From: Minisyncoccota bacterium
GTDB taxonomy: Bacteria; Patescibacteriota; Minisyncoccia; Phycocordibacterales; Phycocordibacteraceae
Length of the DNA stretch: 64,000 bases
Direction of reading: 5' to 3'
NCBI GenBank assembly: GCA_041660025.1
Contig: JBAZXD010000001.1
Coordinates: 305,851 to 369,850, forward strand
In this document: in pieces, positions 1,080 through 34,137 of the stretch
How positions within the stretch are numbered: the first letter of the stretch is position 1
Layout: every line of letters starts with the position of its first letter
The notes under the pieces: generated by a model
The model's input: only the letters and a program-made list of their open reading frames with translations
What the model was told of the DNA's origin: nothing
Databases searched by the model: none
Program-made: the position numbers and the translations under genes

Positions 1080-1607
1080 ATGAAGCAATTTTTACTCCTT
1101 GTAGACGGCATGTCTGGTGGGGGAAAGACTACGGTCACACGATTATTGGCAGATAAATTGCCCCGGACAGCGACTGTCGGTTTCGATAAAATTAAGAAGT
1201 TTGTTTCAGACTTTGAGAGAGGCGCCCGAGACAACCAGATAGCCAGAGAAGTAACTACAGTTATGGTGCAGAAATATTTAGACCTTGGATTGTCAGTGAT
1301 GATCGAGCAACCATTCAGGAACGAAGAAGAGATAGACTTTTATACCAGAGTTGCAGAGGAGCGACACATACCCCTTCATAAGTTTCAATTACACGCCGAC
1401 CCCGCTGTTGCTCTTCAGAGAGTTGTGGCAAGGACAAAAGAAAATAACGGCGACCTTCCTGAAGAACGGGCTCGGCATAACATTTCTTTATTTCAACCAA
1501 GAGGGCACCTGGGCTTCAAAGTTATTGATACGACGAATGCAAAACCCGAAGACATCGCGGAAATTATCTTGAACGAAATCACCAGTGGTGACACTACTTT
1601 GAAATAA
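1080..1607 (+). CDS. P-loop NTPase, predicted small kinase (AAA_33 / zeta-toxin / polynucleotide-kinase-like)
   Basis: Walker A motif GMSGGGKTT near the N-terminus and a ~175-aa size typical of small nucleotide/polynucleotide kinases. GC is visibly lower than in flanking genes. Confidence 0.55.
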   Translation: MKQFLLLVDGMSGGGKTTVTRLLADKLPRTATVGFDKIKKFVSDFERGARDNQIAREVTTVMVQKYLDLGLSVMIEQPFRNEEEIDFYTRVAEERHIPLHKFQLHADPAVALQRVVARTKENNGDLPEERARHNISLFQPRGHLGFKVIDTTNAKPEDIAEIILNEITSGDTTLK

Positions 1608-1636
1608 AGGTCGCAATCGGCTATAGTTATCGCATT

Positions 1637-1720
1637 GCGTCGGTGGCGGAGTGGTCAATCGCAACAGGCTGTAAACCTGTCGGGCATAGCCCTACGAAGG
1701 TTCGAATCCTTCCCGGCGCA
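1637..1720 (+). tRNA. tRNA-Tyr (anticodon GTA), type II with long variable arm, no encoded CCA
   Basis: Manually folded: acceptor GCGTCGG/CCGGCGC (one G-U pair), D arm GCGGAGTGGTCAATCGC, anticodon stem ACAGG/CCTGT with loop CTGTAAA (GTA), long variable arm CGGGCATAGCCCTAC, T arm GAAGG-TTCGAAT-CCTTC, discriminator A. Confidence 0.85.
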
Positions 1721-1861
1721 CAGATTGAGCAAAGCGAAATATGTGCGCCGGAGCACGCCTGGGAGGCGTGTGTGAAGGATTCGAAGACCTTGCGAGCATC
1801 CGCGCTTTGGCGGATCCGCAAGGTGTACTGAAACTGTAAGTTTCGAAAAGCGTACTCGCGG

Positions 1862-1878
1862 TCCTTCCCGGCGCACCA
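1862..1878 (+). repeat. Direct repeat of tRNA-Tyr 3' end (TCCTTCCCGGCGCA + CCA); possible att-site scar or tRNA pseudogene fragment
   Basis: 14-nt exact copy of tRNA positions 1707-1720, here followed by CCA, lies 155 nt downstream. Upstream of it are degenerate T-arm-like segments (gaaggattcgaagacctt, gtttcgaa). Confidence 0.45.
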
Positions 1879-1896
1879 TGCATATTTAAATTAAAT

Positions 1897-1925
1897 AAGG
1901 CCAGCGATTCTGCTGGCCTTATAAA
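1897..1925 (+). terminator. Stem-loop GGCCAGC-gattct-GCTGGCC followed by TTATAAAT
   Basis: Perfect 7-bp GC-rich inverted repeat followed by a T/A-rich run; sits at the 3' end of the minus-strand Cys-rich ORF. Confidence 0.4.
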
Positions 1926-1955
1926 TAATCAATAAATCACGAGAATTTATTTGGT

Positions 1956-2300
1956 CTACAATCTTCCGCAACCACCACCAGTATTACCGATTTTTCTTGA
2001 TGTTTTTTTGACCCATAAATATCTTCTATTGTCCGGAACCACGAAGGAAACGTGCTTTCCTTCACTATACTCGACTTCAGTAACACAATGTCTCGCACTG
2101 CCTTCAACTTGTTCAACACTCCATCCTGAAAACCAGGGTGGTTTTGAGTCCTCCCAACGTTCCTCAGAGTCTGTGACCGTCTCTCTGGTGTCCCATTCCT
2201 TCCATGCCGCACAGTCTGAGGTACAGCACTTGCCGGAATCATCACCTACCCCAAAGGGGCATTTCTTCTGAGACCAATGGCGGCGGGCTTGTTCGGACAT
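1956..2300 (-). CDS. Hypothetical small cysteine-rich protein (orphan, low-GC)
   Basis: 114-aa ORF preceded by a good SD (aaggagtaaaatcATG). Cys-rich (CPFG...CCTSDC...HC). No family recognised. AT-rich relative to neighbours. Confidence 0.45.
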   Translation of the reverse strand: MSEQARRHWSQKKCPFGVGDDSGKCCTSDCAAWKEWDTRETVTDSEERWEDSKPPWFSGWSVEQVEGSARHCVTEVEYSEGKHVSFVVPDNRRYLWVKKTSRKIGNTGGGCGRL

Positions 2301-2586
2301 GATTTTACTCCTTCGAAAGAACGGCGGACCTGTTTAGGAATTGAGTCGGTCAAATGCTTGGCAGTGGGATAGAAAATTCTCTTTCCACCTCCGCTCAAAC
2401 AATAACACCGTAGATTTATTTGTCAAAACCTTTGTTATCCACAATCAGTTCCCGAGACAGATTTTTGGTAAGGAATAAGATACGCTTGTGTAATTCGTAA
2501 ACGTGTGGTATTACAGTCGGTGGATGCGGCTTTACCGTGACTCTGTTTCCTTGTAAAACTCACACAAACGAAAAAGGAGAATACCG

Positions 2587-3621
2587 ATGAAAGCACTTCG
2601 TACAAGCGCGGTTCTCACTGCGTGCATTATTACGATTATGTTCAGCGGACGCATCGCGTTCGGCCAAGATGAGTCGCTGAGCAGTCGGATAGACTCTGCC
2701 TCGACTTCAGCCGAGGAGCAACGGCAAAAGAAAGAAGCGGCGATACCTCGCTGTGATGCTCCGGTCGGCTCGGTAACCATCGCCATGCCGGAACGCAACT
2801 GGTGGCAGCAATATCAGCTGCAATCGCCGGACGCGCTTATCAAGATGTACGTCGCCAAGTCCGGATGCTTTACGCTCGTTGACCGCGGCCGCGGTTTCGC
2901 CATCGCTGAACGCGAACGCGCGCTCGCAAGCGGCGGCAATCTACGGCAAGGATCGAATATCGGCGGCGGACAAATGAAGGCTGCTGATTTCGTCATTACC
3001 CCCGACATCGTAGTGAATAACAACAACTCCGGCGGCAGTGCGATCGGTGCGATCCTTGGGGCCTTTCTACCCGGACCTATCGGGATGATCGCAGGCCAAG
3101 TAAGGATCTCCGACAAGTCGGCTGACGTCACCCTCGCGGTAACGGATGTCCGCAGTTCGGAACAAGTCGTCCTCGCAGAAGGGCAAGCCACGAAGACTGA
3201 TGTCGGGTTCGGCGTTGCCGGTGGCGCGTTCATGGGCGGCGGTTTCGGCGCTGCAGGTGTAGGAAGCTACGCAAACACAGCACTCGGACAAGTGGTTGCG
3301 CTGGCCTACCTCGACGCCTACACGAAGATGGTCGCGAAGATACAAGTTCTCCGGCCGGCCGATGTGGTCGCCGTCGAACCTCCGTCTGCGGTCCAGGCTC
3401 CTCCGCCGCCTCTGGTTACGGCGGAACCGCGAGGAAAGCCTGTCGCAGTGGCGAAGGCAGGTTATCTCTACGATGGCCCTTCGGCAGAGAACCCCTCCAT
3501 CCGCAGTCTGTCTCCCGGTACCATCCTGTACTCGACATCCAAGAAATCGGGTGCGTGGGTGGAAGTAACGGACGACACCGGCAGGAAAGGATGGGTTTTC
3601 GGGAAGCTGCTCTTTCAGTGA
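2587..3621 (+). CDS. CsgG/HfaB-family (curli-secretion-channel-like) protein with N-terminal signal peptide and C-terminal SH3b domain
   Basis: Strong SD (aaaaggagaataccgATG). Hydrophobic signal peptide. The central region aligns block-wise to CsgG (LVDRGRGFAIAERERAL; ADFVITPDIVVNNNNSGGSAIGA; VGFGVAGGAF...GAAGVGSYANT; ALAYLDAYTKMV). C-terminal YLYDGPS...GAWVEVTDDTGRKGWVFGKLL resembles bacterial SH3. Confidence 0.55.
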   Translation: MKALRTSAVLTACIITIMFSGRIAFGQDESLSSRIDSASTSAEEQRQKKEAAIPRCDAPVGSVTIAMPERNWWQQYQLQSPDALIKMYVAKSGCFTLVDRGRGFAIAERERALASGGNLRQGSNIGGGQMKAADFVITPDIVVNNNNSGGSAIGAILGAFLPGPIGMIAGQVRISDKSADVTLAVTDVRSSEQVVLAEGQATKTDVGFGVAGGAFMGGGFGAAGVGSYANTALGQVVALAYLDAYTKMVAKIQVLRPADVVAVEPPSAVQAPPPPLVTAEPRGKPVAVAKAGYLYDGPSAENPSIRSLSPGTILYSTSKKSGAWVEVTDDTGRKGWVFGKLLFQ

Positions 3622-3634
3622 TCGCCCCCTCTAC

Positions 3635-3680
3635 AGGCCTCGGACAACAGTGTTGTTCCGAGGCTGTTTTTTATTCGATA
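3635..3680 (+). terminator. Rho-independent terminator
   Basis: gcctcggacaacag-tg-ttgttccgaggc hairpin followed by TGTTTTTTATT. Confidence 0.55.
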
Positions 3681-3696
3681 TGCTATCGTATTCGGT

Positions 3697-4656
3697 ATGG
3701 CAGACAATAAACCCGTTCTTGTCTCCGGCGTGAAGCCGACCGGCGACCTGCATATCGGCAACTATTTCGGCGCGATGCGCCAGTTCGTCGAGCTGGCAAA
3801 AGGCGGGAAGTATCGCCCCTTCATCTTCGTCGCCGACTACCACGCGCTGAACTCGATGCAGGATGCCGAGGAGATGAAACGGCGCACTCGCGAGATAGTG
3901 ATGGCGTATCTCGCTGTCGGCCTCGACCCAAAGGAGATCACCTTTTTCAAACAATCAGACGTACCTGCGCACACCGAGCTTTGTTGGATTTTCGATACTA
4001 TCACCACGATGCCGTACTTGATGCGCGCCCACGCCTTCAAAGACGCGGAGGCGAAGAATAAAGAAATCAACGTCGGGACCTTCAACTACCCGATGCTGAT
4101 GGCGGCCGACATACTCCTCTACGACGCCGCGGTCGTGCCGGTCGGTGCCGACCAGAAACAGCATATCGAGATAGCGCGCGACACGGCAGAGAAATTCAAC
4201 CGTACGTTCAAGACGAGCGTCTTCACGCTCCCCGAGCCATACATTCTGCCAGACGTCGCGGTCGTTCCTGGCACCGACGGACAGAAGATGAGCAAGAGCT
4301 ATGGGAATGTCATCCCGCTCTTCGGTACGCGCGACGAGCTCGCAAAAGCCGTGATGGGCATCGTCACCGATTCAAGCGGAGAGCGTCCCGAAAACGTGTA
4401 CCGGATACACCGACTCTTCAGAAGCGAGGTGAATCTCAATGCGCTCTACGACGAGCATCGCGGCAATTATAAAGCGCTGAAAGAAACGCTCATCGAAGAC
4501 CTGGACCGCTACCTCGCGCCGATGCGCGCGAAGTATGAAGAGCTCAAAGAAGATTCCGGCATCGTGGACGAAGTTTTGGAGAACGGGAAGCGCGAAGCGC
4601 GTTTCGTCAGCGAGGGCAAGATGGAACAGGTCCGCAAGGCTATTGGTGTAGCATAA
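3697..4656 (+). CDS. trpS: Tryptophanyl-tRNA synthetase
   Basis: HIGH-type motif (GDLHIGNYFG) and KMSKS; the ~320-aa length is typical of bacterial TrpRS. Confidence 0.92.
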   Translation: MADNKPVLVSGVKPTGDLHIGNYFGAMRQFVELAKGGKYRPFIFVADYHALNSMQDAEEMKRRTREIVMAYLAVGLDPKEITFFKQSDVPAHTELCWIFDTITTMPYLMRAHAFKDAEAKNKEINVGTFNYPMLMAADILLYDAAVVPVGADQKQHIEIARDTAEKFNRTFKTSVFTLPEPYILPDVAVVPGTDGQKMSKSYGNVIPLFGTRDELAKAVMGIVTDSSGERPENVYRIHRLFRSEVNLNALYDEHRGNYKALKETLIEDLDRYLAPMRAKYEELKEDSGIVDEVLENGKREARFVSEGKMEQVRKAIGVA

Positions 4657-4660
4657 AGGT

Positions 4661-6013
4661 ATGGAACGAACACTTATCGGAGAGCTGGGGAATCATATCG
4701 GAAAAACGGTCCTGATTTCAGGCTGGGTGGATGTTCGACGGGACCACGGCAAGCTCGTCTTCCTCGATATTCGCGACCGCTCAGGGAAGGTGCAGAGCGT
4801 CTGTCTGCCGAATCATCCCGAGGTCGTCGCTACTGCACAAACCTTGCGCCCCGAATGGGTCGTGCAGGTCGGAGGCGTCGTGAACGAGCGCCCCGAGAAG
4901 ATGCGTACTGAGGGAGTGAACGGGAACGTTGAGCTCGAAGCGACCGCTATCACTGTCCTTGCCGAGGCGCAGGAACTGCCGTTTCCGAAGGATACCGAGG
5001 TCAATTTGGACACCTATCTTGATAACCTCCCGCTCACGCTCAGAAGCGAGCGTGCTCGCGCGATATTCAAAGTGCAGGCCGAGATCGCGCGCGCCTACCG
5101 CGCCTTCCTCGATGCGGAGGGCTTCACCGAGTTCCAGGCGCCGAAGCTCATCGGCGACGACGCCGAGGGCGGAGCAAATGTCTTCTCCGTGCCGTATTTT
5201 AATGACAAGGTCGCTCACCTCGGCACCTCGCCGCAGTTCTATAAGCAGATTATGGTGGGCGTTCTCGAGCGCGTCTACGCTATTGGGAACGTCTATCGCG
5301 CCGAGAAGCACTCCACCACTCGGCACCTGAACGAGTACACCTCGATGGATATGGAGATGGGCTTCATCAGCGACCATCGCGACATTATGGCCATCGAGAC
5401 ACGGCTTATGCATGCACTTATCACGCATCTGCAGAAGACCTGCGCGCAAGAATTTAAGACGCTCGGCGCAACACTGCCGAAGGCACCGGAGGAATTCCCG
5501 ACGATGAAACTTCGCGATGCACTCGAACTCATTTTCAAAGAGACCGGGCGCGATAACCGCAACGAACCCGACCTCGAGCCCGAGGATGAGCGTTGGCTCT
5601 CGGAATGGGCGCTCAAGGAGCATCAAAGTGATTTCCTATTCGTCACGCACTACCCGGTAGCGAAACGGCCGATGTATACCTTTGAAGACCCTGACGATGT
5701 CGGGTACACGCGGAGCTTCGACCTCCTTTTCCGCGGGGTCGAGATAACCACCGGCGGTCAGCGTCGCCACGACTACAACAATCTCGTCGAGGGCATCAAG
5801 GCGAAGGGGCTCGACCCGGAAAAATTCTCGTACTACCTCCAAGCGTTCAAATATGGTATGCCGCCGCACGGCGGATGGGGGATGGGACTCGAGCGCCTCA
5901 CCCAGAAGATGCTCGGGCTCGCGAATGTGAAGGAGGCAACTCTCTTCCCGCGCGATATCAACCGCATCGACCAGCTCCTTTCGGCGCATACCGCCGACAT
6001 TGTCGAGGATTAA
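4661..6013 (+). CDS. aspS: Aspartyl-tRNA synthetase, short archaeal/non-discriminating type (AsnRS not excluded)
   Basis: Class II aaRS: N-terminal OB anticodon-binding fold and a catalytic core with the FYKQ...YRAE...HxxEYT motif series. 450 aa, with no GAD insertion. Confidence 0.85.
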   Translation: MERTLIGELGNHIGKTVLISGWVDVRRDHGKLVFLDIRDRSGKVQSVCLPNHPEVVATAQTLRPEWVVQVGGVVNERPEKMRTEGVNGNVELEATAITVLAEAQELPFPKDTEVNLDTYLDNLPLTLRSERARAIFKVQAEIARAYRAFLDAEGFTEFQAPKLIGDDAEGGANVFSVPYFNDKVAHLGTSPQFYKQIMVGVLERVYAIGNVYRAEKHSTTRHLNEYTSMDMEMGFISDHRDIMAIETRLMHALITHLQKTCAQEFKTLGATLPKAPEEFPTMKLRDALELIFKETGRDNRNEPDLEPEDERWLSEWALKEHQSDFLFVTHYPVAKRPMYTFEDPDDVGYTRSFDLLFRGVEITTGGQRRHDYNNLVEGIKAKGLDPEKFSYYLQAFKYGMPPHGGWGMGLERLTQKMLGLANVKEATLFPRDINRIDQLLSAHTADIVED

Positions 6014-26145: not shown

Positions 26146-29100
26146 TTACGGCGTCGTTGTCGTCGCGCTCGCCGTAGTATCGGTCGTAGCGGTTGTGTCC
26201 GTTGTGGCGGCGGTAGTATCAGTCGTTGTCGTAGTTGTGTCGGCTGTAATGGTTGTATCCGTTGTCGTGGTGGCTGTGTCGGTCGTTACGATAGTCGTAT
26301 CGGTCGTCGTTGTAGTCGTGTCTGTCGGCGGAGTGGTAGTAGCTGTGTCGGTCGTAGTGGTCGCGGTAGTTGAGTCGGTCGTCAATGAGACGTCCGTAAT
26401 GGTAATGGTCGCGTCCACCAAGGTCGTCGACGTGGCTATCGGGGTGATTGATATATCCGTGGTGGATGCCGTTCCCGAAGTGCCCGTCGCCTGAGTGTTC
26501 ACGAATGCCAAGAGCGCCTTCACATCGTCCTTGGTGAGACACTGGTCATCCACACAGATCTTCTCGCTTGCGCGGAATGTCTTTGCAAAGAGGTCTCCGA
26601 TGCCGTTGCTCGCATTCGCGAACCAGCTCGTTATCTGCTCGGTGGAAGAGGCGATTGATATCATCGGCGACCCGCTTGCGCTGCTCACTGCCCCGCTCTC
26701 AAGGGCGGCTACACGGTCCTCAAGCGAGGTCATACGGGTGGTAAGAGCCTCTACCTTGGCGACCAGGGCCTGGGTGGCGGCGAGGTTGAAGGTGGCGAGC
26801 TTGTAGAGGTCCACGCCCAGCCCATCCGGGGAGAGGATTTCGGGGGCGATGGTAGCCGCATCTTCTGCGATGAAGCCCAGGCGGAGTGGGTCCTGCTGGT
26901 CCTCTATTGTATAGCGATAGGTGGCGACCTTGAGATTCACGAGTTGGTCGAGCATATCGTCGGTGGAGGAAGCGTTGAGATAATTGATGTCGGTCTTGGC
27001 CGAGCGGGTGGAAGTGTTGATGAAGCCGGTGGCGCCGATGTCCCCTGCGACCGTGAGGGTGTGGTTCGGGGTGGAAGTGCCGATGCCGATGTTTCCGGAA
27101 GCATCAATCGTGAGTACGGTCGTGGTGCCGAAATTGTTTTGGATAAATGCGGTCGTGAAAGCAATTTCCTGGATGGCCGAAGTCAAAACGGGGACAAATT
27201 TCTCATAATTAAGAGTGTAGTACCCGTCCGGTCCCATCGTCACTGTTTCCGGAAACAGCGGCAATACTTGTTGTGCGATAAAACCGAGTTGGGTTGACGT
27301 TGAAATTGCGAACGTCGGATGCTGGTCATAATAGAGCTGGTTCCATGTGTGGGTTATCGGCTGTATCTGCATAATGCGTGCAAGAGTGGAGCCTAACGGC
27401 TGTATATTCGTCTTTAATCTCTCATCAGATGCCTGGCTCATACACCAAGAATACTGGGTGCTGCAAATGTTTCCGGCCATCGTTAGAAGGCCGCCCATAG
27501 TCATATCAAAGAGATCCGCCGGAGCCGACCAGCCACCGATGCGGAAGACGTTGTCGGAATCAAGCCCCATATTGACGGCGTAGGCTCCAGCGCGATGGAA
27601 GCTCATCGTCGCGCCACTTCCATTATTGGAATATGCCACAAGGGTCTGACATCCTGCACAAGCAGTATCGTTATTAGAAATAAAATTGTTTCCAGCACTC
27701 CATGTTCCCGTCAAGGCGCTGACATTTGTCGCAGTTCCCCCGTTTGCCGGCGCGCTTCCGGCAGTATTGGCATAGCTCACGCTGAAGTTGGATGGGTTCC
27801 ATACATAGTAATTTGAGCCGTCGTTTGAGCCCCAGAGCCACGACGGCTGGCCTCCCTGCCCGCTCCAGTTAAACGGTTTACTTGAAACATTGCCCCACGC
27901 AACGCTATTCGCCGCCCCAGCAGTTAAGCTCGCCGCCGTTCCCGAGAGACCCGCGCCAGAACCATTGAATTGAGAAGCGGAGACAGCACCTGTTGCGGAG
28001 ATAGTGCCTGCCGATGAGACAGTATTAAAATGGCTGTCATTGTTTAGGTCAATATAGTAAGTGGTACTGCTATCAAGGTCATACATATACCGAGAACGAA
28101 GGCTTCCATCCGTCTGCGTGATAAACCCGCCTTGGGCGCTTAGAGTACCGGCAGCCGCGACGGTGCCAGTGAAACTCGCAGCACTTGAAATCGTCTGGCC
28201 GTTGATAGTGCTTGCCGCATTTATAGTACCGGCGCTGTTTATGACGATGTTGCCGTTCGCCGATGAGATGCCGGTGTCGCTCATATACATCGAGCCCGTG
28301 CCGGTGCGGAGCGTCCCCTTCACCCACAGGTTGCTCGCGAAGGTAGAGGTGGCGTTTGTGCCCGTGCCGTTCACATCGATGAAGCCCGCGAAAGTTGAAG
28401 TCGCGCTTTCCGAGGTAGCGGTGAAGTACGGGGCTGAGATTGAAGAAGTGGCAGTGAACCCACTCGCGGTGATGGTGCCGTCGAAGACTGCGTCCCCTGC
28501 GACGGAGAGTTTCGCATACGGACTCGTCGTCCCGATACCGACGTTGCCATTTGATAAAATTTTAACCTGGCTAGTAGAGTTATTAGCCGACAAATCAATA
28601 CCGCCTACTGCGTTTGTGGCAATAGCATAAGAACCGTTTGTGTCAAAATAACGGTCAAGCCCTGTGTAACCAACTTTATTAATGCCATTAATTTGGCCAT
28701 CTGAACGGAAAACCGCCACATAATTTGCTGAATTATTATTCGCTACAGCAAAAACCCTGGCCACTGCGGGCGCGTTTGTAGAGTTAGTTTCTATGTCAAG
28801 TTGATACTGCGGACTCGTCGTCCCGATGCCGACGTTGCCGGTTGTTGTGATGTTCCCTGCGTTGTCTAGTCTCAGTCTCTCTGCTGTTGATGATGCGTCG
28901 TAGAACCTTAATCCGCCGGCAGAATCGGCTCCGGCAATATTTGAAATTTGCCAGAAATGCGCATTGGCTCCTGAATTGTTTAATGACACGGAAAAATCAC
29001 CTGTGTCCGCGAAGGTTGCCGTTCTGGCGCTTAAAAGTCCACCTGAATCAATTGACGCAACAACTGAATCGTTACTGTTTTTCCATTGGGTCAAGTTTGC

Positions 29101-32100
29101 TGTCTGTCCGGCAAAGCCTCTCACTATTAGACCAATATCGGAAACCGCGCCGGAGTTTATTTGTAATTTTGCCCCCGGATTCGCCGTCCCAATCCCCACA
29201 TTCCCGCCGTTCGTGACGATGAAGTTTGTGGCGGTGGAACTCCCGACGACGAATGCGGGGCCCGTGATGCCATTCGGATTCACGCTCAACTGCCCCCACG
29301 GGCTCGTCGTCCCGATGCCGACGTTGCCTTGAGCATCAACAACAGACAAAGCCACATTGCTGCTATTTTGCCATTCAGTCAAATTGGCTGTTTGGGATGC
29401 CGCTGCCCGAACAACAAATGTTTTTACGCCCGTACCACCACTTGTTATAAGAACCCCCGGATTAGTGCCGATGTCACCACGGGGTTCAAAACGAATAGAA
29501 GTTCCATATTCTGTAATAGGAACACTGAGTTTTATATTGCTTGTATGTACACCAAACTGAGGAGAAGAGGCAAGTGACGCATTCGGTGCCCAAAGGCCTA
29601 GAACATTCCATGTCGATCCCTGAATACCTACATAAGCAGTCGTGCCGTCTGTCGTCTTTATGGCCAACTGCCCCGCACTAGTACCCGCGACTGTCCCTGA
29701 CGACAGGGTAAGCAAATTGGTCGGCGCTGCCGTCCCAATCCCCACATTCCCCCCGTTCGTCACAATGAAGTTGGTGGCGGTAGAGGAACCGACGACGAAT
29801 GCGGGGCCCGTGATGCCGTTCGGGTTCACGCTCAACTGTCCCCACGGACTCGTCGTCCCGATGCCGACGTTGCCTTGAATTATCATTCCGTCTGTCGGCG
29901 CGGCAATAGCAGCATATGTGCTACCGATGCTCACGTTACCAGTCACGCCAAAACGACTTCCAAAAGTAGTACCATTGCCAACAATTACCTTTTGGTTGGC
30001 AGTATCATAGCTCATAAAGTAATCAGCACCGTTCCCCAACACTCCTATCTTCCCTACATCTCTTTGTGTGTAATTAAAGTAGGTACTGGCGTCAATATAT
30101 AATAGCTGACCGGTAGATTTTACCCAGCCAGCGATATTCAATTTGTAACCCGCGGGGTCTATCGTCCCAATCCCCACATTCCCCCCGTTTGTCACGATGA
30201 AGTTCGTGGCGGTGGACGAGCCAACAACGAAGGCTGGGCCCGTGATGCCGTTCGGATTCACGCTCAACTGCCCCCACGGGCTCGTCGTCCCGATGCCGAC
30301 GTTGCCGTTATTTAGAATCCTCATCGCTTCCGTCGCGCCGTTGTTCCCCGTCTGGAATATTATATCTGCACCAGTTGTTCCTACTCCACTGGTAGAACGC
30401 AAGGTTAATGGAGTAGCTACTCCATTCCCACCGTAGTAAATACTTCCACCAGTACTTAAAGTAGCTAATACTCCAGAACCCACTTGTAAGGTGATGGGAT
30501 TGTTCACACTATAAAGTTGCATTCCACTTGATGCTCCACCACTAATTGCACTATAAGAACCAAAATAGCCAATGGTAGTTCCAGCTCTTGAAAAGGTCAT
30601 ACTAGGCCCTGTACTACTATTACTCCCGCCATCTATGGTGATGGTTGGAGAACTGGCTATTGCTCCATTCCCAACAGTAAGCAATGTTCCCGGACTCGCC
30701 GTCCCAATCCCCACATTCCCCCCGTTTGTCACGATGAAGTTCGTGGCGGTGGAACTTCCGACGACGAAGGCGGGGCCGGTGATGCCGTTTGGATTCACGC
30801 TCAACTGCCCCCACGGGCTCGTCGTCCCGATGCCGACGTTCGCCCCGTTCCCAAGTATCAAGCTGTTTGATGCGGTAACCTGGGCATTATAGCCAATTGC
30901 GGTGGCGTTGGTCAGATTATTGGTTGAGCCGTTGCCGGCATCGTAACCGATGAAAGTATTATTACTTCCCGTCGTGTTGGAAATTCCGGCTCTCATGCCA
31001 AGAGCAGTATTACCTGTGCCGGTTGTATTACCTCCTAATGCGTTCCAACCAAGCCCCGAGTTCCGTTCTCCGACTCCGGTCGTTAGACTAAGCGCGCTTG
31101 CGCCGACGGCAGTATTATAATTAGCGGTCGTATTCGCCTGCAATGCCGAATTGCCAATTGCAGTATTCTCGCCTCCGCTTGTATTGTATCTTAAGGAACT
31201 AACACCTACTGCCGTATTTGTGGATCCTCCTGCATTACTTTGAAGAGCAACATATCCTATGGCTATATTGGAGTAACCGGTTGTAACGCCAGGTAGAGCA
31301 TAATTACCCAAAGCAATATTTTGTCCTATGCCGGAAGTTGTTAAATTACCGCTAGGAGAACCGATAAAAATATTTTCCGTTCCGGTCTTGTGAATGAAAG
31401 TTGCACCGTTAAATTGGTATGTTGAAGTCGCGTTTACATTAGAAGCAACAATATCCCCGACAACCGAGAGTTTCGCGTACGGACTCGTCGTCCCGATGCC
31501 GACGTTGCCGGAAGCTGAAATACGCATTTTTTCGGAGAGGGACTGAAGTGTAGTCCCTGACGAGCCTGCGTCTGACGTTGAGAATGTAAGAGCTCCTCCC
31601 TCTGCGTTGCCGGTAGCTTTTCCTCCAGCCAAGGTAACACTTGCGCCGGCAATATTTGTACCTGACCCACCTGTCCCGTTAAGAACAAATCCCGAAGGGG
31701 TCGCGCTAATAATCCCTTTCCCAAAATAAGCCGTCGTAATGGCTTGAGTTGAGTCGTCGGCGCCAACGACAAGGGTATTCGCAACATTTGATAATGAACC
31801 CTGCCCGATAGCTATAGCTCCGAGGGCGGTTGCGCTCGCGCTCTGACCTAAAGCAAGAGCCCTTTCGGCAGACGCGACCGAACTTCCTCCAACGGCCGTT
31901 GACAAAGCACCGCTGGCGGATGTGTTGTGGCCAATTGCTGTAGAAATACTGTTAGCGGCTGATGCGTTGTAACCAAATGCAACACTGCTCCCCCCACTGG
32001 CGCTGGCCCCTCTGCCTATAGCAGTACTTAAGCTGGCCGATACTGATGCTCCGTGCCCAACAGCCAAGCTGTCTGCGGAAGTGCCTGTTGTTGATAAGTA

Positions 32101-34137
32101 ACCAACAGCCATTGACCTGTCTCCATTTGCAATGGAACCAAAACCAAACTTTTCACTTTGAGAACCGGAGCCCGGACTCGTGATGTTGCCCGTCACAATC
32201 GCGGCTCCAGCCACAGACAGCAAGTTGTATGGCGAGGTCGTCCCCACCCCCACATTCCCGCTGCCGGTCACCGTGAAGAATGTCGTGGCCGACGAAGAGG
32301 AAGAAATGCGGAATACGTCGCCGGTCTGTCCGGCGACGCTCTGGAGGGTGAGGGTGGTGTTGGTGGTGGAAGCAGAGGCGTCCTGGATGAAGAGCGGGTG
32401 ATTGAATTCGAAGCGCTTGGCGGATTCAGCCGAGTTCCAGGTGAGGAGGGCGTTCGGGGATATGGTGCCTCGCTCAAAGGAGAGATACGCGTTCTCGGTG
32501 TCGGCAGTGGCGTTGTCGGAGTTGATGTTGAAGGTCTCGGCGGTGAGGTTGCCTCCCGTGAGGGTGCCGACGATGGTGGAGGCGTTCACTTCGTTCGCGT
32601 AGATCTTGTCGAAGCGGACGGCGGGGGTGCCGATGTCCACCGTGTCGTCGAGGGCCTGGATGTTGCCGATGATGGTGTTAGAGCCGATGCGGAGGGTGCC
32701 GGCTGATGCGGTGATGTCGTGGTTGCCGGAGCCTGTGAAGGTGATACCGGAGCCTGTGCCGGTGAGGTACGCTCCAGTGCTTCCTCCCACCGAGAAGTTC
32801 CCGGAGAAGGAAGAAGTGGCTGAGGAGTCGGTCGCCATGAAGTTCTGCCCCACGACCTGTCCAGCAATGGAGAGGAGCGAGTACGGACTTGTGGTGCCGA
32901 TGCCGATGTACCCGGTTGTGGAGTCGACGACGAGCTTGTCGGTGCCGACCGTGAGCCCGCCGGCGAAGGTACTCGTGGCGGTGGTGGAGGTGGCAACGAA
33001 GTGTGGTGCGGTGGCGCTCTGGTATGAGGTGAGGGCGCCGGTGGCGATGAGAGAGCCGGAGGTGAAATCGTCGGCGGTGAGGGTATCGAAGGCGCCGCTC
33101 GTGGCAGAGACGCTGGTGCCGTTCGTGAGCGCGCCACCGTCGAAGGTGCCGCCCCTGAAGTCGCCGTTTCGTACGATGAGGTCAGAGAGGTCTTCGATCA
33201 TATTGACCTGCTGGATGGTGGTGACGTTGGTGGCCACCTGGCTCGCAACGGGCTGGATGAGGCTCGAGACCCGCGTGAGGAGCTCGGTGCGGAGCGAGGT
33301 GAGGGACTGGTTGACGAAGTCTTCGGAGACGCCACGGACGATGGTGGAGTAGTAGTTGGTGGGGTTGAGGGTGGTAACGACACGGGTGACGGCAGGAGGA
33401 GTGATGCTTGCCCTGTTGGGTGCGGAACTATCTGATGGGGGGGCGACGGGGAATGCTGGCTCGCTGGTCACAAGCTGAGATTCATCGAACGGCATCGTGG
33501 CCGGTAGTGGATTAGAGACAACGGCGAGGGGCGATGGCTCGTTAAAGATCCCTGCGAGCACATCTTGGGTACGAGAGAAAAGGCCGTTGATAGTTTCGTA
33601 CGTAGCAAGCGCCACCTGTTCCCCGAATGAAAGCGTGGGCTGAGCGGCGGCAACTGCCGCGATTTGTTTCTCGTTATTCGTGAGATGTGGAACGATTGTA
33701 GATTGCGCCGCGACTATTCCCAGCACGACGATGAATGTTGCGACAGAGAATGCGAATACATTGGTGCGCAATGATGCGCTCCAAATATCGAACCGCGACG
33801 CCGAGTGGTGTGAGAGCGAACGGGACAGTTCCGACGGGAGTTGCTGTTGAAGTGGTTTTGTCAGAGCCTTTACCGTGCGACGTACTGGAGGACGGTGCGA
33901 ATGGTATTCAGCCGCGTGGACGCGGGAACGGATCTGCGAAAGTTCTTCCTTGCGTTCCGCCTGCAGGTCAAGGAAGCGGATGAGCGAGTTGCGTTTGATC
34001 ATCCACACCTTGCCAACCTGAACTCCTTCGACTTCGCCGGACCGCGCAAGACGTCGGAGATAGCTCGAAGTATATCCGGAAAGTTTTCCAGCGTACCGAG
34101 TCGTTATCAGATCTTTTTTATATAAATTCGATTTCAT
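26146..34137 (-). CDS. Giant (2663 aa) membrane-anchored surface protein of phage-tail-fibre type. N-terminal HTH, one TM helix, long GNVGIGTTSP-type repeat region, two tandem S74-like intramolecular chaperone/autoprotease modules, coiled coil, Thr-rich tail
   Basis: Single uninterrupted ORF. The N-terminus carries an excisionase/MerR-like HTH (LSGYTSSYLRRLARSGEVEGVQVGKVWMI). A TM helix (FAFSVATFIVVLGIVAA) follows. More than 10 copies of the GxVGIGTTSP(W/Y)xxLxV tail-fibre motif are present. The SDERLKTNI and SAKTDINYL segments, each followed by a GFIAQQ/GFIAED block, resemble peptidase S74. The C-terminus is a TDTT low-complexity tail. Confidence 0.85.
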   Translation of the reverse strand: MKSNLYKKDLITTRYAGKLSGYTSSYLRRLARSGEVEGVQVGKVWMIKRNSLIRFLDLQAERKEELSQIRSRVHAAEYHSHRPPVRRTVKALTKPLQQQLPSELSRSLSHHSASRFDIWSASLRTNVFAFSVATFIVVLGIVAAQSTIVPHLTNNEKQIAAVAAAQPTLSFGEQVALATYETINGLFSRTQDVLAGIFNEPSPLAVVSNPLPATMPFDESQLVTSEPAFPVAPPSDSSAPNRASITPPAVTRVVTTLNPTNYYSTIVRGVSEDFVNQSLTSLRTELLTRVSSLIQPVASQVATNVTTIQQVNMIEDLSDLIVRNGDFRGGTFDGGALTNGTSVSATSGAFDTLTADDFTSGSLIATGALTSYQSATAPHFVATSTTATSTFAGGLTVGTDKLVVDSTTGYIGIGTTSPYSLLSIAGQVVGQNFMATDSSATSSFSGNFSVGGSTGAYLTGTGSGITFTGSGNHDITASAGTLRIGSNTIIGNIQALDDTVDIGTPAVRFDKIYANEVNASTIVGTLTGGNLTAETFNINSDNATADTENAYLSFERGTISPNALLTWNSAESAKRFEFNHPLFIQDASASTTNTTLTLQSVAGQTGDVFRISSSSSATTFFTVTGSGNVGVGTTSPYNLLSVAGAAIVTGNITSPGSGSQSEKFGFGSIANGDRSMAVGYLSTTGTSADSLAVGHGASVSASLSTAIGRGASASGGSSVAFGYNASAANSISTAIGHNTSASGALSTAVGGSSVASAERALALGQSASATALGAIAIGQGSLSNVANTLVVGADDSTQAITTAYFGKGIISATPSGFVLNGTGGSGTNIAGASVTLAGGKATGNAEGGALTFSTSDAGSSGTTLQSLSEKMRISASGNVGIGTTSPYAKLSVVGDIVASNVNATSTYQFNGATFIHKTGTENIFIGSPSGNLTTSGIGQNIALGNYALPGVTTGYSNIAIGYVALQSNAGGSTNTAVGVSSLRYNTSGGENTAIGNSALQANTTANYNTAVGASALSLTTGVGERNSGLGWNALGGNTTGTGNTALGMRAGISNTTGSNNTFIGYDAGNGSTNNLTNATAIGYNAQVTASNSLILGNGANVGIGTTSPWGQLSVNPNGITGPAFVVGSSTATNFIVTNGGNVGIGTASPGTLLTVGNGAIASSPTITIDGGSNSSTGPSMTFSRAGTTIGYFGSYSAISGGASSGMQLYSVNNPITLQVGSGVLATLSTGGSIYYGGNGVATPLTLRSTSGVGTTGADIIFQTGNNGATEAMRILNNGNVGIGTTSPWGQLSVNPNGITGPAFVVGSSTATNFIVTNGGNVGIGTIDPAGYKLNIAGWVKSTGQLLYIDASTYFNYTQRDVGKIGVLGNGADYFMSYDTANQKVIVGNGTTFGSRFGVTGNVSIGSTYAAIAAPTDGMIIQGNVGIGTTSPWGQLSVNPNGITGPAFVVGSSTATNFIVTNGGNVGIGTAAPTNLLTLSSGTVAGTSAGQLAIKTTDGTTAYVGIQGSTWNVLGLWAPNASLASSPQFGVHTSNIKLSVPITEYGTSIRFEPRGDIGTNPGVLITSGGTGVKTFVVRAAASQTANLTEWQNSSNVALSVVDAQGNVGIGTTSPWGQLSVNPNGITGPAFVVGSSTATNFIVTNGGNVGIGTANPGAKLQINSGAVSDIGLIVRGFAGQTANLTQWKNSNDSVVASIDSGGLLSARTATFADTGDFSVSLNNSGANAHFWQISNIAGADSAGGLRFYDASSTAERLRLDNAGNITTTGNVGIGTTSPQYQLDIETNSTNAPAVARVFAVANNNSANYVAVFRSDGQINGINKVGYTGLDRYFDTNGSYAIATNAVGGIDLSANNSTSQVKILSNGNVGIGTTSPYAKLSVAGDAVFDGTITASGFTATSSISAPYFTATSESATSTFAGFIDVNGTGTNATSTFASNLWVKGTLRTGTGSMYMSDTGISSANGNIVINSAGTINAASTINGQTISSAASFTGTVAAAGTLSAQGGFITQTDGSLRSRYMYDLDSSTTYYIDLNNDSHFNTVSSAGTISATGAVSASQFNGSGAGLSGTAASLTAGAANSVAWGNVSSKPFNWSGQGGQPSWLWGSNDGSNYYVWNPSNFSVSYANTAGSAPANGGTATNVSALTGTWSAGNNFISNNDTACAGCQTLVAYSNNGSGATMSFHRAGAYAVNMGLDSDNVFRIGGWSAPADLFDMTMGGLLTMAGNICSTQYSWCMSQASDERLKTNIQPLGSTLARIMQIQPITHTWNQLYYDQHPTFAISTSTQLGFIAQQVLPLFPETVTMGPDGYYTLNYEKFVPVLTSAIQEIAFTTAFIQNNFGTTTVLTIDASGNIGIGTSTPNHTLTVAGDIGATGFINTSTRSAKTDINYLNASSTDDMLDQLVNLKVATYRYTIEDQQDPLRLGFIAEDAATIAPEILSPDGLGVDLYKLATFNLAATQALVAKVEALTTRMTSLEDRVAALESGAVSSASGSPMISIASSTEQITSWFANASNGIGDLFAKTFRASEKICVDDQCLTKDDVKALLAFVNTQATGTSGTASTTDISITPIATSTTLVDATITITDVSLTTDSTTATTTTDTATTTPPTDTTTTTTDTTIVTTDTATTTTDTTITADTTTTTTDTTAATTDTTATTDTTASATTTTP
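26149..26465 (-). repeat. Degenerate tandem repeat encoding a Thr/Asp-rich C-terminal tail
   Basis: DNA shows reiterated gtcgt(a/t)g.. units; protein reads TDTTATTDTT.. for ~105 aa. Confidence 0.6.
29190..30850 (-). repeat. Four near-identical ~140-bp intragenic DNA repeats at ~540-bp spacing, encoding identical 46-aa cassettes
   Basis: Repeated DNA blocks recur at about 29.2-29.33, 29.74-29.88, 30.17-30.30 and 30.70-30.85 kb, e.g. ggactcgtcgtcccgatgccgacgttgcc and attccccccgttcgtcacgatgaagtt.gtggcggtgga. Each encodes GNVGIGTTSPWGQLSVNPNGITGPAFVVGSSTATNFIVTNGGNVGIGT. Confidence 0.8.

What the first reader, a model, noticed from the sequence alone, without database searches (positions are those of the whole stretch)
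2587..3621. CsgG-family secretion-channel homolog fused to a C-terminal SH3b domain, next to a low-GC islet
The mature region aligns block-by-block with curli-channel CsgG. LVDRGRGFAIAERERAL corresponds to FIPLERQGLQNLLNERKI, ADFVITPDIVVNNNNSGGSAIGA to ANIMVEGSIIGYESNVKSGGVGA, and ALAYLDAYTKMV to the C-terminal amphipathic helix region. The protein ends in a bacterial SH3-like domain (...GAWVEVTDDTGRKGWVFGKLL). CsgG proteins are outer-membrane nonameric channels. A CsgG-like protein carrying a peptidoglycan-binding-type SH3b domain is an atypical combination and raises the question of what it secretes or anchors. This is particularly open in a lineage often thought to lack a classical outer membrane. 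The gene has one of the clearest SD sequences in the window and sits beside an AT-rich segment carrying an orphan Cys-rich ORF.
Basis: partly seen in the sequence, partly recalled or inferred. Interest (0 to 1): 0.55.

Follow-up and report, generated by a model that had tools for sequence, protein, structure and literature searches.

The report
Wall-tethered CsgG-like protein in CPR bacterium
A tiny, probably single-membraned bacterium of the candidate phyla radiation keeps a well-conserved relative of the CsgG outer-membrane channel fused to a cell-wall-binding SH3 domain. The domain pairing is common in Proteobacteria, but it is puzzling in a cell that should have no outer membrane to put it in.

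Summary
The ORF at 2587-3621 is real. It encodes a 344-aa exported protein with a Pfam CsgG domain (E=5e-10, above cut-off), a Pro/Ala-rich linker and a C-terminal SH3b domain. AlphaFold models match CsgG crystal structures best. The same protein, with a start 17 codons too late, is already deposited as 'CsgG/HfaB family protein' from a Candidatus Paceibacterota (CPR) MAG.

The CsgG+SH3 pairing is not atypical. It defines an uncharacterised subfamily of about 1,600 clusters at 50% identity, mostly proteobacterial. The gene always stands alone, without csgE/F or curli genes, and most members lack a lipobox.

The notable point is where it occurs. The gene sits at the same TyrRS/tRNA-Tyr/TrpRS locus in four related CPR assemblies and is under purifying selection (dN/dS about 0.2). 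The window encodes peptidoglycan synthesis genes but no outer-membrane machinery. The tree and the gene contexts also show lateral exchange with diderm bacteria.

Best reading: a wall-tethered, ring-forming CsgG-type module whose two glycine-rich hairpins insert into a membrane. Which membrane, and whether it forms an open pore, cannot be decided with these tools.

Verdict: known kind, new variant, moderate interest.

The parts
2574..2579 (+). Shine-Dalgarno AAGGAG, 7 nt upstream of the ATG
   Evidence: Read from the sequence. It supports the 344-aa start over the 327-aa start of the deposited annotation (P0001).
2587..3621 (+). CDS, 344 aa: CsgG-fold plus SH3b exported protein
   Evidence: ORF; Pfam; homologues; dN/dS 0.17-0.25.
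2587..2664 (+). Signal peptide, aa 1-26 (MKALR / TSAVLTACIITIMFSG / RIAFG, then QDE). Sec type I, no valid lipobox.
   Evidence: Read from the sequence. A published-style lipoprotein pattern is negative for the window and positive for 19 of 120 family members. All homologues carry an N-terminal signal. No SignalP or LipoP was available.
2665..2751 (+). N-terminal extension, aa 27-55, with the family motif S-x-STSAEEQRxKKEA-x-IP just before invariant Cys56
   Evidence: Alignments; predicted as two helices of low to medium confidence.
2752..3351 (+). CsgG-fold alpha/beta core, aa 56-255 (Pfam CsgG aa 82-253), ending in a long C-terminal helix (aa 232-255)
   Evidence: Pfam at 39.5 bits. AlphaFold core pLDDT 85-95. 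Foldseek best hits are CsgG 4uv2/4uv3/6l7c, E about 1e-5 to 3e-6, probability 1.0, TM 0.36-0.50 on the target.
2782..2826 (+). Loop between strand 1 and helix 1 (aa 66-80, PERNWWQQYQLQSPD) with invariant Trp72-Trp73. It occupies the position of the CsgG constriction loop.
   Evidence: Invariant columns. hhalign aligns PERNWW with CsgG PASNF (low confidence). Family alignment.
3022..3111 (+). Glycine-rich hydrophobic hairpin 1 (aa 146-175), at the position of the CsgG TM1 hairpin
   Evidence: BLASTP and hhalign register. Conserved Gly149/150/154/158/163/166. pLDDT below 50 in both models. The ascending arm has helix-like periodicity.
3196..3273 (+). Glycine-rich hairpin 2 (aa 204-229, KTD-x-G[FW]G ... 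G-x-x-Y), at the position of the CsgG TM2 hairpin
   Evidence: Register; family alignment. The ascending arm has strand-like periodicity of 170-180 degrees. pLDDT below 50.
3352..3438 (+). Pro/Ala-rich linker, aa 256-284
   Evidence: Low pLDDT with no secondary structure. It is about 18 residues longer in the window's clade than in typical proteobacterial members.
3439..3618 (+). SH3b domain, aa 285-344
   Evidence: Pfam SH3_3 at 29.6 bits against 27. pLDDT 90-98. Foldseek matches SH3b domains of BT_1314, YrvJ, CPE1231 and CPF_0587 at rmsd 1.3-2.7 A.
3633..3673 (+). Intrinsic-terminator-like hairpin followed by UUUUUU, 12 nt after the stop codon
   Evidence: strand folding gives -21.9 kcal/mol, z = -4.10. 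TrpRS starts at 3697, so the gene is a monocistronic unit.
1637..1721 (+). tRNA-Tyr(GTA), the conserved neighbour of the gene
   Evidence: ARAGORN and Rfam. A tRNA-Tyr flanks the gene in L081, L084 and L085, and a tRNA-Leu flanks it in L083.
1080..2586 (.). Variable low-GC insertion zone between TyrRS and the gene. It holds an AAA_33/zeta-toxin-like kinase (1080-1607, +), the tRNA-Tyr, a duplicated tRNA 3' end, and a Cys-rich ORF (1956-2300, -).
   Evidence: GC profile; Pfam; repeats. The content differs in each related locus: nothing in L081, a LAGLIDADG endonuclease in L084, a 157-aa ORF in L085.

Best explanation
The gene encodes an exported envelope protein built from three parts: a CsgG-fold core, a flexible Pro/Ala linker of about 30 residues, and a C-terminal SH3b domain.

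Shown:
- The domain identities.
- A Sec-type signal peptide.
- Monocistronic organisation (own SD and terminator).
- Purifying selection.
- Conserved position in a CPR lineage.
- Membership of a large stand-alone subfamily centred in Proteobacteria.

Inferred:
- As in CsgG, the core assembles into a ring.
- The two glycine-rich hydrophobic hairpins per subunit (aa 146-175 and 204-229), which sit exactly where CsgG has its TM1 and TM2 hairpins, insert into the adjacent lipid bilayer.
- The invariant Trp72-Trp73 pair, in the loop equivalent to the CsgG constriction loop, lines the central opening.
- The SH3b domain holds the ring to peptidoglycan through the linker.

In Proteobacteria the membrane would be the outer membrane. 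In this CPR cell, which makes peptidoglycan but is expected to have only a cytoplasmic membrane, the module most likely sits in the wall zone on the outer face of that membrane. It would work there as a wall-tethered membrane-docking ring or small pore. The gene most likely came from diderm bacteria by lateral transfer next to a tRNA gene and was then inherited vertically. Its cargo is unknown because no partner gene is linked anywhere.
For: Identity:
- Pfam CsgG and SH3_3 both exceed their curated cut-offs.
- Two AlphaFold models (pLDDT 75 and 77.5) give CsgG as the best PDB match, ahead of hairpin-less relatives of the fold (PelC, LpoB, GNA1162, CT253), and SH3b domains for the C-terminus.

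Hairpins and constriction loop:
- BLASTP and hhalign place the two Gly-rich segments on CsgG TM1 and TM2.
- Their glycines and the flanking aromatics are nearly invariant across the family.
- They are disordered in monomer models, like TM1/TM2 in the pre-pore CsgG crystal form 4uv2, which is the top hit.
- W72/W73 are invariant and align with the CsgG N55/F56 constriction motif. That stacked aromatic plus H-bond ring is described as required in CsgG-like translocators (PMC4594475).

Export and expression:
- Every family member has a signal peptide.
- The window gene has its own SD and terminator.

Functional in CPR:
- The order TyrRS/tRNA-Tyr/gene/TrpRS/AspRS/ScpA/ScpB/S11/MraY holds in the window, L081, L084 and L085.
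- Housekeeping neighbours are 72-92% identical. The gene is 55-65% identical, with the same rank order.
- dN/dS is 0.17-0.25.

Wall target:
- The window encodes MraY, FtsW, MurG, MurA-like, a Mur ligase, two PBPs, S11 and M23 peptidases and MreB/C.

Lateral origin:
- The bulk of the family is proteobacterial.
- P0006 (CPR locus) is 80% identical to P0019, which sits beside a TpsB/Omp85 gene and TraG-like genes. P0025 (CPR locus) is 70% identical to a Burkholderiales protein.
- A tRNA gene is adjacent in all five CPR-type loci.
Against: - No multimer could be modelled, so ring formation, stoichiometry and a barrel are all inferred from homology.
- Sequence similarity to E. coli CsgG itself is marginal (E=0.034 and 0.18). 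Neither family profile finds CsgG in the PDB by sequence.
- Foldseek TM-scores are modest (0.36-0.50).
- Hairpin 1 has a period-4 'hhGG' glycine-zipper pattern and apolar residues on both faces. That fits a short helical re-entrant hairpin at least as well as a water-lined beta-barrel.
- The window protein and most family members lack the lipid anchor. NanoporeDB (PMC13397529) cites that anchor as essential for CsgG bilayer insertion.
- An ungated CsgG-type barrel in an energy-transducing cytoplasmic membrane would be harmful.
- No substrate or accessory gene is linked in any lineage.
- That this particular organism lacks an outer membrane is an expectation from its phylum (PMC8871954) plus 64 kb without OM genes. 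It has not been observed.
Confidence: 0.45

Rival explanations
1. Non-pore tether or scaffold. The CsgG-fold core acts like its hairpin-less fold relatives (LpoB, PelC, GNA1162), as a membrane-proximal ring or adaptor. The glycine-zipper hairpins only dip into one leaflet of the cytoplasmic membrane, and the SH3b domain binds the wall. The protein would staple membrane to peptidoglycan, or position wall enzymes, without conducting anything.
For: - Hairpin 1 has helix-like periodicity, high uniform hydrophobicity and GxxxG spacing.
- AlphaFold draws short helices there, at low confidence.
- There is a sub-threshold LpoB Pfam hit, and LpoB and PelC appear in the Foldseek list.
- No cargo or accessory genes are linked anywhere.
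- This reading is compatible with a single-membrane cell.
- Peptidoglycan synthesis genes lie within 5-10 kb in all four related loci.
Against: - CsgG, not the hairpin-less relatives, is the best structural and HMM match.
- Both insertions are kept at the exact TM1/TM2 positions, with CsgG-like lengths and aromatic ends.
- The invariant WW in the constriction-loop position is not explained by a tether role.
- The Sphingobium subgroup has lost the SH3 domain but kept the hairpins, so tethering is not the core function.
Confidence: 0.3
2. Host-directed pore. CPR bacteria live attached to other cells. The protein would be exported, held at the symbiont surface by SH3b, and would insert its hairpins into the host's outer membrane at the contact site to open a conduit for metabolites.
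For: - The window protein and P0021/P0014 have cleavable Sec signals without a lipid anchor, so they can leave the membrane.
- The linker is longer in the CPR-containing clades.
- The closest relatives outside CPR are in diderm bacteria.
- Self-inserting beta-barrel pores are a known principle (the anthrax PA63 comparison in PMC4594475).
Against: - Other CPR copies at the same locus (P0006, P0025) do carry a lipobox and would stay on the symbiont's own membrane.
- The family is widespread in free-living Proteobacteria as a single housekeeping-looking gene.
- Nothing here identifies a host.
- This rival is entirely inferential.
Confidence: 0.1
3. The puzzle is only apparent. Either the contig is not from a single-membrane organism (mis-binned or chimeric), or this CPR lineage has an outer lipid layer. 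In either case the protein would be an ordinary outer-membrane CsgG-family ring.
For: - The envelope architecture of most CPR has never been observed (PMC8871954).
- GC of 58% is high for CPR.
- P0019, 80% identical to a CPR-locus copy, lies beside an Omp85-family TpsB gene on a contig of unknown origin.
Against: - The gene is embedded in a 387-kb contig, between housekeeping genes whose order is shared by four assemblies. Two of them were independently labelled Paceibacterota or Minisyncoccota.
- No BamA, Lpt, Lol, TolC or OmpA-type gene occurs in the 64 kb.
- L094 lacks the conserved gene order and carries TraG-like genes and RadC, which marks it as a mobile element. Its TpsB has proteobacterial named relatives.
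Confidence: 0.07
4. A decaying or neutral passenger from a past transfer, with no function in the CPR host.
For: - It sits next to a tRNA gene and a variable insertion zone.
- The lipobox is absent in the window copy.
Against: - The reading frame is intact in four diverged assemblies.
- dN/dS is 0.17-0.25, with synonymous sites saturated.
- All family-invariant residues are retained.
- The gene has a strong SD and its own terminator.
Confidence: 0.03

Closest known systems
CsgG, the curli secretion channel of E. coli (type VIII secretion; PDB 4UV3, 4UV2, 6L7A)
   Same: - Same Pfam family (PF03783, above cut-off) and the best structural match.
- Same order of core elements.
- Two inserted hairpins at the TM1 and TM2 positions.
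- An aromatic-bearing loop at the constriction position.
- A long C-terminal helix.
   Different: - No lipobox in the window protein or in most of the subfamily.
- No csgE/csgF/csgA/csgB nearby.
- An extra N-terminal extension of about 30 residues, with a conserved Cys pair (C56, C94).
- A C-terminal linker plus SH3b domain.
- Glycine-zipper-like hairpins in place of amphipathic ones, and WW in place of the Y/N/F rings.
- The host is expected to have no outer membrane.
- Pairwise sequence similarity is only marginal.
HfaB of Caulobacter (holdfast-anchor export), the other named member of the 'CsgG/HfaB family'
   Same: NCBI files the window protein under this family name. From my own knowledge, HfaB shows that CsgG-family proteins serve cargoes other than curli.
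   Different: HfaB is encoded with its substrates (hfaA, hfaD) and has no SH3b domain (my own knowledge, not tested here). The window gene has no linked cargo.
Hairpin-less relatives of the fold: PelC, LpoB, GNA1162, CT253, Cj1090c
   Same: Same alpha/beta core. They appear lower in the Foldseek lists, and LpoB gives a sub-threshold Pfam hit. They are envelope lipoproteins, and PelC forms rings without spanning the membrane.
   Different: They lack the two long inserted hairpins and the SH3b domain. The LpoB HMMs fall below their cut-offs (19.1 against 22.3 bits; 14.8 against 110.55).
SH3b-bearing cell-wall proteins (for example the NlpC/P60 enzyme BT_1314, B. subtilis YrvJ, and clostridial surface-protein SH3 domains)
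   Same: The C-terminal 60 residues superpose at rmsd 1.3-2.7 A and pass the SH3_3 cut-off. In those proteins the domain targets the protein to peptidoglycan (established knowledge).
   Different: There the SH3b domain is attached to wall hydrolases. Here it is attached to a CsgG-fold membrane module. Peptidoglycan binding was not tested.
Outer-membrane-to-wall tethers (OmpA, Pal, Lpp): functional analogy only
   Same: A membrane-embedded or membrane-anchored part is joined by a flexible segment to a peptidoglycan-binding part (established knowledge). The layout is the same here.
   Different: There is no sequence or fold relationship. Those proteins use OmpA-like domains or covalent links, not SH3b.

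Membership tests
CsgG/HfaB family (Pfam PF03783) | Match to the family HMM above the curated gathering score | tested here: met
   39.5 bits against 20.8, E=5e-10, aa 82-253 on profile positions 41-202 of 210.
CsgG/HfaB family (Pfam PF03783) | CsgG alpha/beta core fold | tested here: met
   Foldseek top 15 hits are CsgG chains, E from 3e-6 to 2e-4, probability 1.0, TM 0.36-0.50 on the target, for two independent models. The TM-scores are modest because the hairpins are unmodelled.
CsgG/HfaB family (Pfam PF03783) | Two inserted segments at the TM1 and TM2 positions that can form the membrane hairpins | tested here: inconclusive
   Position and length fit. Conformation is undecided: pLDDT is below 50. 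The ascending arm of hairpin 1 has helix-like periodicity and that of hairpin 2 strand-like periodicity.
Canonical curli channel CsgG (type VIII secretion) | N-terminal lipobox and lipidated Cys | tested here: not met
   The window protein fails the lipoprotein pattern and has an AFG/Q Sec-type site. Only 19 of 120 relatives are pattern-positive.
Canonical curli channel CsgG (type VIII secretion) | Genetic linkage to csgE, csgF and curlin genes | tested here: not met
   The neighbours are tRNA synthetases, ScpA/B and wall-synthesis genes. No partner recurs in 93 related loci. For comparison, the E. coli csgDEFG-csgBAC layout is shown.
Canonical curli channel CsgG (type VIII secretion) | Nonamer with a composite 36-stranded barrel | not testable with these tools
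   Only single-chain prediction was available. The feature is taken from PMC4594475.
Canonical curli channel CsgG (type VIII secretion) | Constriction formed by a stacked aromatic ring plus H-bond donor ring (F56, N55, Y51) | tested here: inconclusive
   N71-W72-W73 align with N55-F56, and W72/W73 are invariant. However, the hhalign probability is low and no coordinates could be inspected.
Canonical curli channel CsgG (type VIII secretion) | Outer-membrane location | not testable with these tools
   The phylum is expected to be monoderm (PMC8871954; kingdom Bacillati). No OM-biogenesis genes occur in 64 kb. There is no direct observation.
Bacterial SH3 domain (SH3b, Pfam PF08239 SH3_3) | HMM match above the gathering score, and an SH3 beta-barrel fold | tested here: met
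   29.6 bits against 27. pLDDT 90-98. rmsd 1.3-2.7 A to solved SH3b domains.
Bacterial SH3 domain (SH3b, Pfam PF08239 SH3_3) | Binding to peptidoglycan | not testable with these tools
   Needs a sacculus pull-down. Context only: the window encodes a full wall-synthesis set.
LpoB (PBP activator) | Match to the LpoB HMMs above their cut-offs | tested here: not met
   PF13036 at 19.1 bits against 22.3. TIGR02722 at 14.8 against 110.55.

The most novel reading that the evidence does not exclude
A CsgG-type oligomeric beta-barrel pore works in a bacterium with a single membrane. It would either be a gated wall-tethered pore in the symbiont's own cytoplasmic membrane, or a pore the symbiont plants in its host's outer membrane to draw metabolites. 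It would have been acquired from, and still be exchanged with, diderm bacteria.
Probability: 0.15. Interest if true: 0.8.

Novelty: new variant of a known kind. Interest (0 to 1): 0.45.

Why it matters
CsgG is the textbook peptide channel of the Gram-negative outer membrane and the pore used in nanopore sequencing. This subfamily differs from it in four ways:
- it has a wall-binding SH3b tether;
- it usually has no lipid anchor;
- it has no partner genes;
- its hairpins are glycine-rich.

The subfamily is large but, as far as my literature searches show, undescribed. Its conservation under selection in CPR bacteria is a concrete handle on two open questions. One is what the CPR cell envelope really looks like. 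The other is how these episymbionts exchange material with, and genes from, their hosts. Cultured Proteobacteria (Dyella, Sandarakinorhabdus, Sphingobium) carry relatives, so the biochemistry is testable now. If the protein is merely a membrane-to-wall staple, it is an ordinary envelope protein with an unusual pedigree.

Tried and rejected
- Sequence searches of the PDB with the single protein and with two family profiles never reached CsgG. hhalign against authentic E. coli CsgG gave probability 0.33. The CsgG assignment therefore rests on the Pfam HMM and the structure comparison, not on direct similarity.
- A deeper 101-sequence alignment sharpened the core but did not resolve the hairpins. 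Model coordinates are not exposed, so the Cys56-Cys94 distance and the Trp positions could not be measured.
- Looking up the window's own contig by exact protein failed twice. I annotated the window with Pfam instead.
- Contamination or mis-binning was considered and rejected because the gene order is conserved in four assemblies.
- LpoB membership was rejected because the scores are sub-threshold.
- A defence-island reading of the low-GC islet found nothing significant in PADLOC.
- The structured segment after tRNA-Tyr gave only sub-threshold Rfam hits and is not conserved in sister loci.
- A search for conserved neighbours across 93 loci found only within-taxon gene-order conservation.
- The literature holds no paper linking CsgG to CPR/Patescibacteria/Parcubacteria, or CsgG-like proteins to SH3.
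- The crude signal-peptidase-I site finder gave unreliable positions and was not used. The AFG/Q site is my reading of the sequence.
- The NJ tree has no support values and is midpoint-rooted, so the direction of transfer is an inference.
Full report
OBSERVATION

An AAGGAG box ends 7 nt before the ATG. A hairpin followed by six U's lies 12 nt after the stop codon (-21.9 kcal/mol, z = -4.1). TrpRS starts at 3697, so the gene is a self-contained transcription unit.

Pfam gives CsgG (PF03783) at E=5e-10, 39.5 bits against a cut-off of 20.8, over aa 82-253. It gives SH3_3 (PF08239) at 29.6 bits against 27, over aa 292-342. LpoB appears only below threshold, and NCBIfam has no family-level model for the protein.

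STRUCTURE

Two AlphaFold runs used family alignments of 69 and 101 sequences and gave mean pLDDT of 75 and 77.5. Both show a confident alpha/beta core (pLDDT 85-95), a long C-terminal helix (aa 232-255), an unstructured Pro/Ala-rich linker (aa 256-284) and a very confident SH3 barrel (pLDDT 90-98).

Foldseek against the PDB puts CsgG chains in the first 15 places for both models: 4uv2 pre-pore, 4uv3 membrane form, and the 6l7a/6l7c CsgFG complexes. E-values run from 3e-6 to 2e-4, with probability 1.0 and TM 0.36-0.50 on the target. SH3b domains follow (BT_1314, YrvJ and clostridial SH3 domains, rmsd 1.3-2.7 A). After those come the hairpin-less relatives of the fold: PelC, LpoB, GNA1162, CT253 and Cj1090c.

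Direct sequence similarity to E. coli CsgG, fetched from MG1655, is only marginal: BLASTP E=0.034 and hhalign E=0.18. Neither family profile finds CsgG in the PDB by sequence. It places the two glycine-rich segments, aa 146-175 and 204-229, on CsgG's TM1 and TM2 hairpins. It also places PERNWW on the constriction-loop motif PASNF.

Trp72 and Trp73 are invariant in the 69-sequence alignment, as are Cys56 and Cys94. The hairpin glycines are invariant (G150, G158, G213) or nearly so.

Both hairpins stay below pLDDT 50 in the monomer models. This resembles the disordered TM1/TM2 of the non-lipidated pre-pore crystal form.

Hydrophobic-moment analysis is mixed. The ascending arm of hairpin 1 peaks at 90-100 degrees, with a period-4 'hhGG' glycine-zipper look. 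The ascending arm of hairpin 2 peaks at 170-180 degrees and is framed by G[FW]G and GxxY. All four E. coli arms peak near 150 degrees.

The fold and the positions of the functional elements are therefore CsgG-like. Whether the hairpins make a barrel is open.

SIGNAL PEPTIDE AND START CODON

The N-terminus reads MKALR / TSAVLTACIITIMFSG / RIAFG, then QDE. That is a Sec type I signal peptide. A published-style lipoprotein pattern is negative for it and positive for 19 of 120 relatives.

Among relatives, the subgroup P0002-P0032 often carries a clean lipobox (LALGGC, FSGC, LAGC). Most proteobacterial members have AxA-type sites. Lipidation, a defining trait of canonical CsgG, is therefore not a trait of this subfamily.

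The deposited annotation of this very protein (P0001, 327 aa) starts at Met18, inside the hydrophobic core. It is almost certainly 17 codons too short.

THE FAMILY

The database search found 1293 relatives. An exhaustive profile search of 1.84 billion cluster representatives found 1613 at E<=1e-3 and 305 at E<=1e-30. The scan of species-representative genomes returned 80 loci. Every one with a taxon label is proteobacterial (Rhodanobacteraceae, Steroidobacteraceae, Sphingomonadaceae and others), at 49% identity or less.

The SH3-like C-terminus is present in all proteobacterial members aligned, even where Pfam does not call it. Only a Sphingobium subgroup ends right after the C-terminal helix, at 256 aa. 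The 'atypical combination' is therefore the normal architecture of a large, uncharacterised CsgG subfamily.

The gene stands alone everywhere. Contexts in Burkholderiales and in two large proteobacterial contigs share nothing. Clustering of neighbouring ORFs over 93 loci found only within-taxon conservation. I found no paper that describes the subfamily or links CsgG to CPR.

THE ORGANISM AND THE LOCUS

P0001 is labelled Candidatus Paceibacterota. NCBI treats that name as a synonym of the phylum Minisyncoccota, kingdom Bacillati.

The window is a run of housekeeping and wall genes. They include TyrRS, TrpRS, AspRS, GluRS, a class I LysRS, ScpA/B, an S11 carboxypeptidase, MraY, FtsW, MurG, a Mur ligase, two PBPs, MraW, MreB/C, a MurA-like enzyme and an M23 peptidase. 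No outer-membrane biogenesis gene is present.

The same order (TyrRS, tRNA-Tyr, CsgG-SH3, TrpRS, AspRS, ScpA, ScpB, S11, MraY) is found in three other assemblies. These are L081 (P0021), L084 (P0006) and L085 (P0025, labelled Minisyncoccota).

Housekeeping proteins are 72-92% identical among the four. CsgG-SH3 is 55-65% identical, with the same rank order: window-L084 closest, L085 farthest. dN/dS is 0.17-0.25, with synonymous sites saturated.

This is a functional gene inherited within a CPR lineage, not a mis-binned fragment. The few CPR characterised so far are monoderm, and most have never been examined (PMC8871954).

LATERAL EXCHANGE

In an NJ tree the window protein falls in a clade with P0002-P0023. 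A sister clade holds P0025 (CPR locus), P0024, P0030 and the Burkholderiales/Sulfuricellaceae proteins P0026/27/29. The alpha- and gammaproteobacterial bulk lies outside both (no support values, midpoint root).

Each CPR copy has closer relatives elsewhere than among the other CPR copies at the same locus. P0006 is 80% identical to P0019, and P0025 is 70% identical to the Burkholderiales P0027.

P0019 sits on a contig beside a ShlB/Omp85-type TpsB gene, a 1224-aa ORF, two TraG/TrwB-like genes and RadC. That looks like a mobile element. Its TpsB has Sphingomonas and Azospirillum as named relatives.

A tRNA gene abuts the gene in all five CPR-type loci. tRNA-Tyr lies before it in the window, L084 and L085 and after it in L081. 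tRNA-Leu lies before it in L083.

The stretch between TyrRS and the gene differs in every assembly.

My inference is acquisition from diderm bacteria by integration next to a tRNA, then vertical descent with occasional replacement or export.

MECHANISM

Shown: an exported, selected, stand-alone protein with a CsgG-fold core, a linker and an SH3b domain.

Inferred, at about 0.45 confidence:
- It assembles into a CsgG-like ring.
- Its two hairpins per subunit enter the neighbouring bilayer.
- The Trp pair lines the opening.
- The SH3b domain ties the ring to peptidoglycan through the linker. The linker is about 18 residues longer in the window's clade than in typical Proteobacteria.

The layout of membrane, then ring, then wall is the same whether the membrane is a proteobacterial outer membrane with the wall beneath it or a CPR cytoplasmic membrane with the wall above it.

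Points against an open pore in the CPR cell:
- An ungated barrel in an energised membrane would be harmful.
- The window protein has no lipid anchor.
- Hairpin 1 has a helix-like pattern.
- No cargo gene is linked.

Hence the main rival (0.3) is a non-conducting membrane-to-wall staple or scaffold, in the manner of PelC or LpoB. A host-directed pore (0.1), an unrecognised outer layer or wrong taxonomic assignment (0.07), and a dead passenger gene (0.03) are less likely.

COMPARISON AND VERDICT

The protein is a member of the CsgG/HfaB Pfam family: both the HMM test and the fold test are met.

It is not a canonical curli or type VIII secretion CsgG. The lipobox and csgE/F/A/B linkage tests were run and not met. 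Stoichiometry, barrel formation and location could not be tested.

It works most like CsgG with an added OmpA/Pal-style wall tether.

The exact protein is already annotated with the family name, and the architecture is common in databases. What is new is the recognition of the subfamily's distinct features and of its conserved presence in a presumably single-membraned CPR lineage. I rate it a new variant of a known kind, interest 0.45.

Noticed in passing
window 4661-6013 (AspRS), compared with L081 8348-9739, L084 10098-11486 and L085 12216-13613: At the same position in the shared gene order, AspRS comes in two types. Window and L085 are 62% identical to each other, and L081 and L084 are 88% identical. 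Across the two pairs identity is only 39-44%, while all other neighbours are 72-92% identical. This looks like in-place replacement of an essential synthetase by a distant homologue.
   Followed up: partly
window 1707-1721 and 1862-1876; segment 1722-1882: The last 15 nt of tRNA-Tyr (TCCTTCCCGGCGCAC) are repeated exactly 155 nt downstream. The 161-nt stretch after the tRNA folds unusually well (-72 kcal/mol, z = -4.75), closed by an acceptor-like stem GCGCCGG/CCGGCGC that is followed by ACCA. Rfam hits are sub-threshold only, and the segment is not conserved in the sister loci. It may be an integration scar or a tRNA-derived element.
   Followed up: partly
window 1956-2300 (minus strand): The 'orphan' Cys-rich ORF (114 aa) has a promoter-like site (2426-2399), an AAGGAG box and a terminator (1922-1895). 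It also has six homologues at 53-80% identity in metagenomes, none with a Pfam domain or a name. It is a small conserved family of unknown function, not an orphan.
   Followed up: partly
window 1080-1607 (plus strand): A low-GC (43-47%) gene for an AAA_33 / zeta-toxin-like P-loop kinase is wedged between TyrRS and tRNA-Tyr. It is absent from that position in L081, L084 and L085. L084 instead carries a LAGLIDADG homing endonuclease there. This is an insertion hot spot.
   Followed up: partly
window 2587-2637, compared with the deposited protein P0001: The public annotation starts the protein at Met18 (327 aa), which removes the signal peptide. The upstream ATG with a strong SD gives the 344-aa form that matches all homologues.
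   Followed up: yes
L094 5325-12042 (Logan contig SRR5080639_31983): A CsgG-SH3 gene (P0019, 80% identical to a CPR-locus copy) is followed by a ShlB/Omp85 TpsB gene and a 1224-aa ORF with no Pfam domain, amid TraG/TrwB-like genes and RadC. A second pairing is likely, because CsgG-SH3 P0032 and TpsB homologue P0153 both come from an NCBI contig of exactly 30,072 bp. This may be a mobile cassette that links this subfamily to two-partner secretion.
   Followed up: partly
L085 (JBTSHI010000011.1, Minisyncoccota MAG) and L088 (JBTSHV010000001.1, Burkholderiales MAG): Two MAGs with adjacent accession prefixes, which may come from the same submission, carry CsgG-SH3 proteins that are 70% identical. 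That is closer than L085's copy is to the other CPR copies at the same locus (55-59%). This hints at transfer between co-occurring CPR and Burkholderiales.
   Followed up: no
window 26146-34137 (minus strand): A giant 2663-aa ORF whose only Pfam hit is a Peptidase_S74 (endosialidase chaperone) domain near aa 2237-2299. It is probably a large self-processing surface fibre.
   Followed up: no
window 57080-58426 (plus strand): A single 448-aa ORF fuses peptide deformylase (aa 1-169) to methionyl-tRNA formyltransferase (aa 185-430). These are normally two adjacent genes.
   Followed up: no
L083 (JGI Ga0376277_0003951), gene at 3283-4356: A fifth small-genome-type context for the gene (P0014, 62% identical, GC 46%). 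It lies between tRNA-Leu and a cation-efflux gene, near VKOR/DsbA genes, and does not share the TyrRS locus. The gene has therefore landed next to different tRNAs in different lineages.
   Followed up: partly
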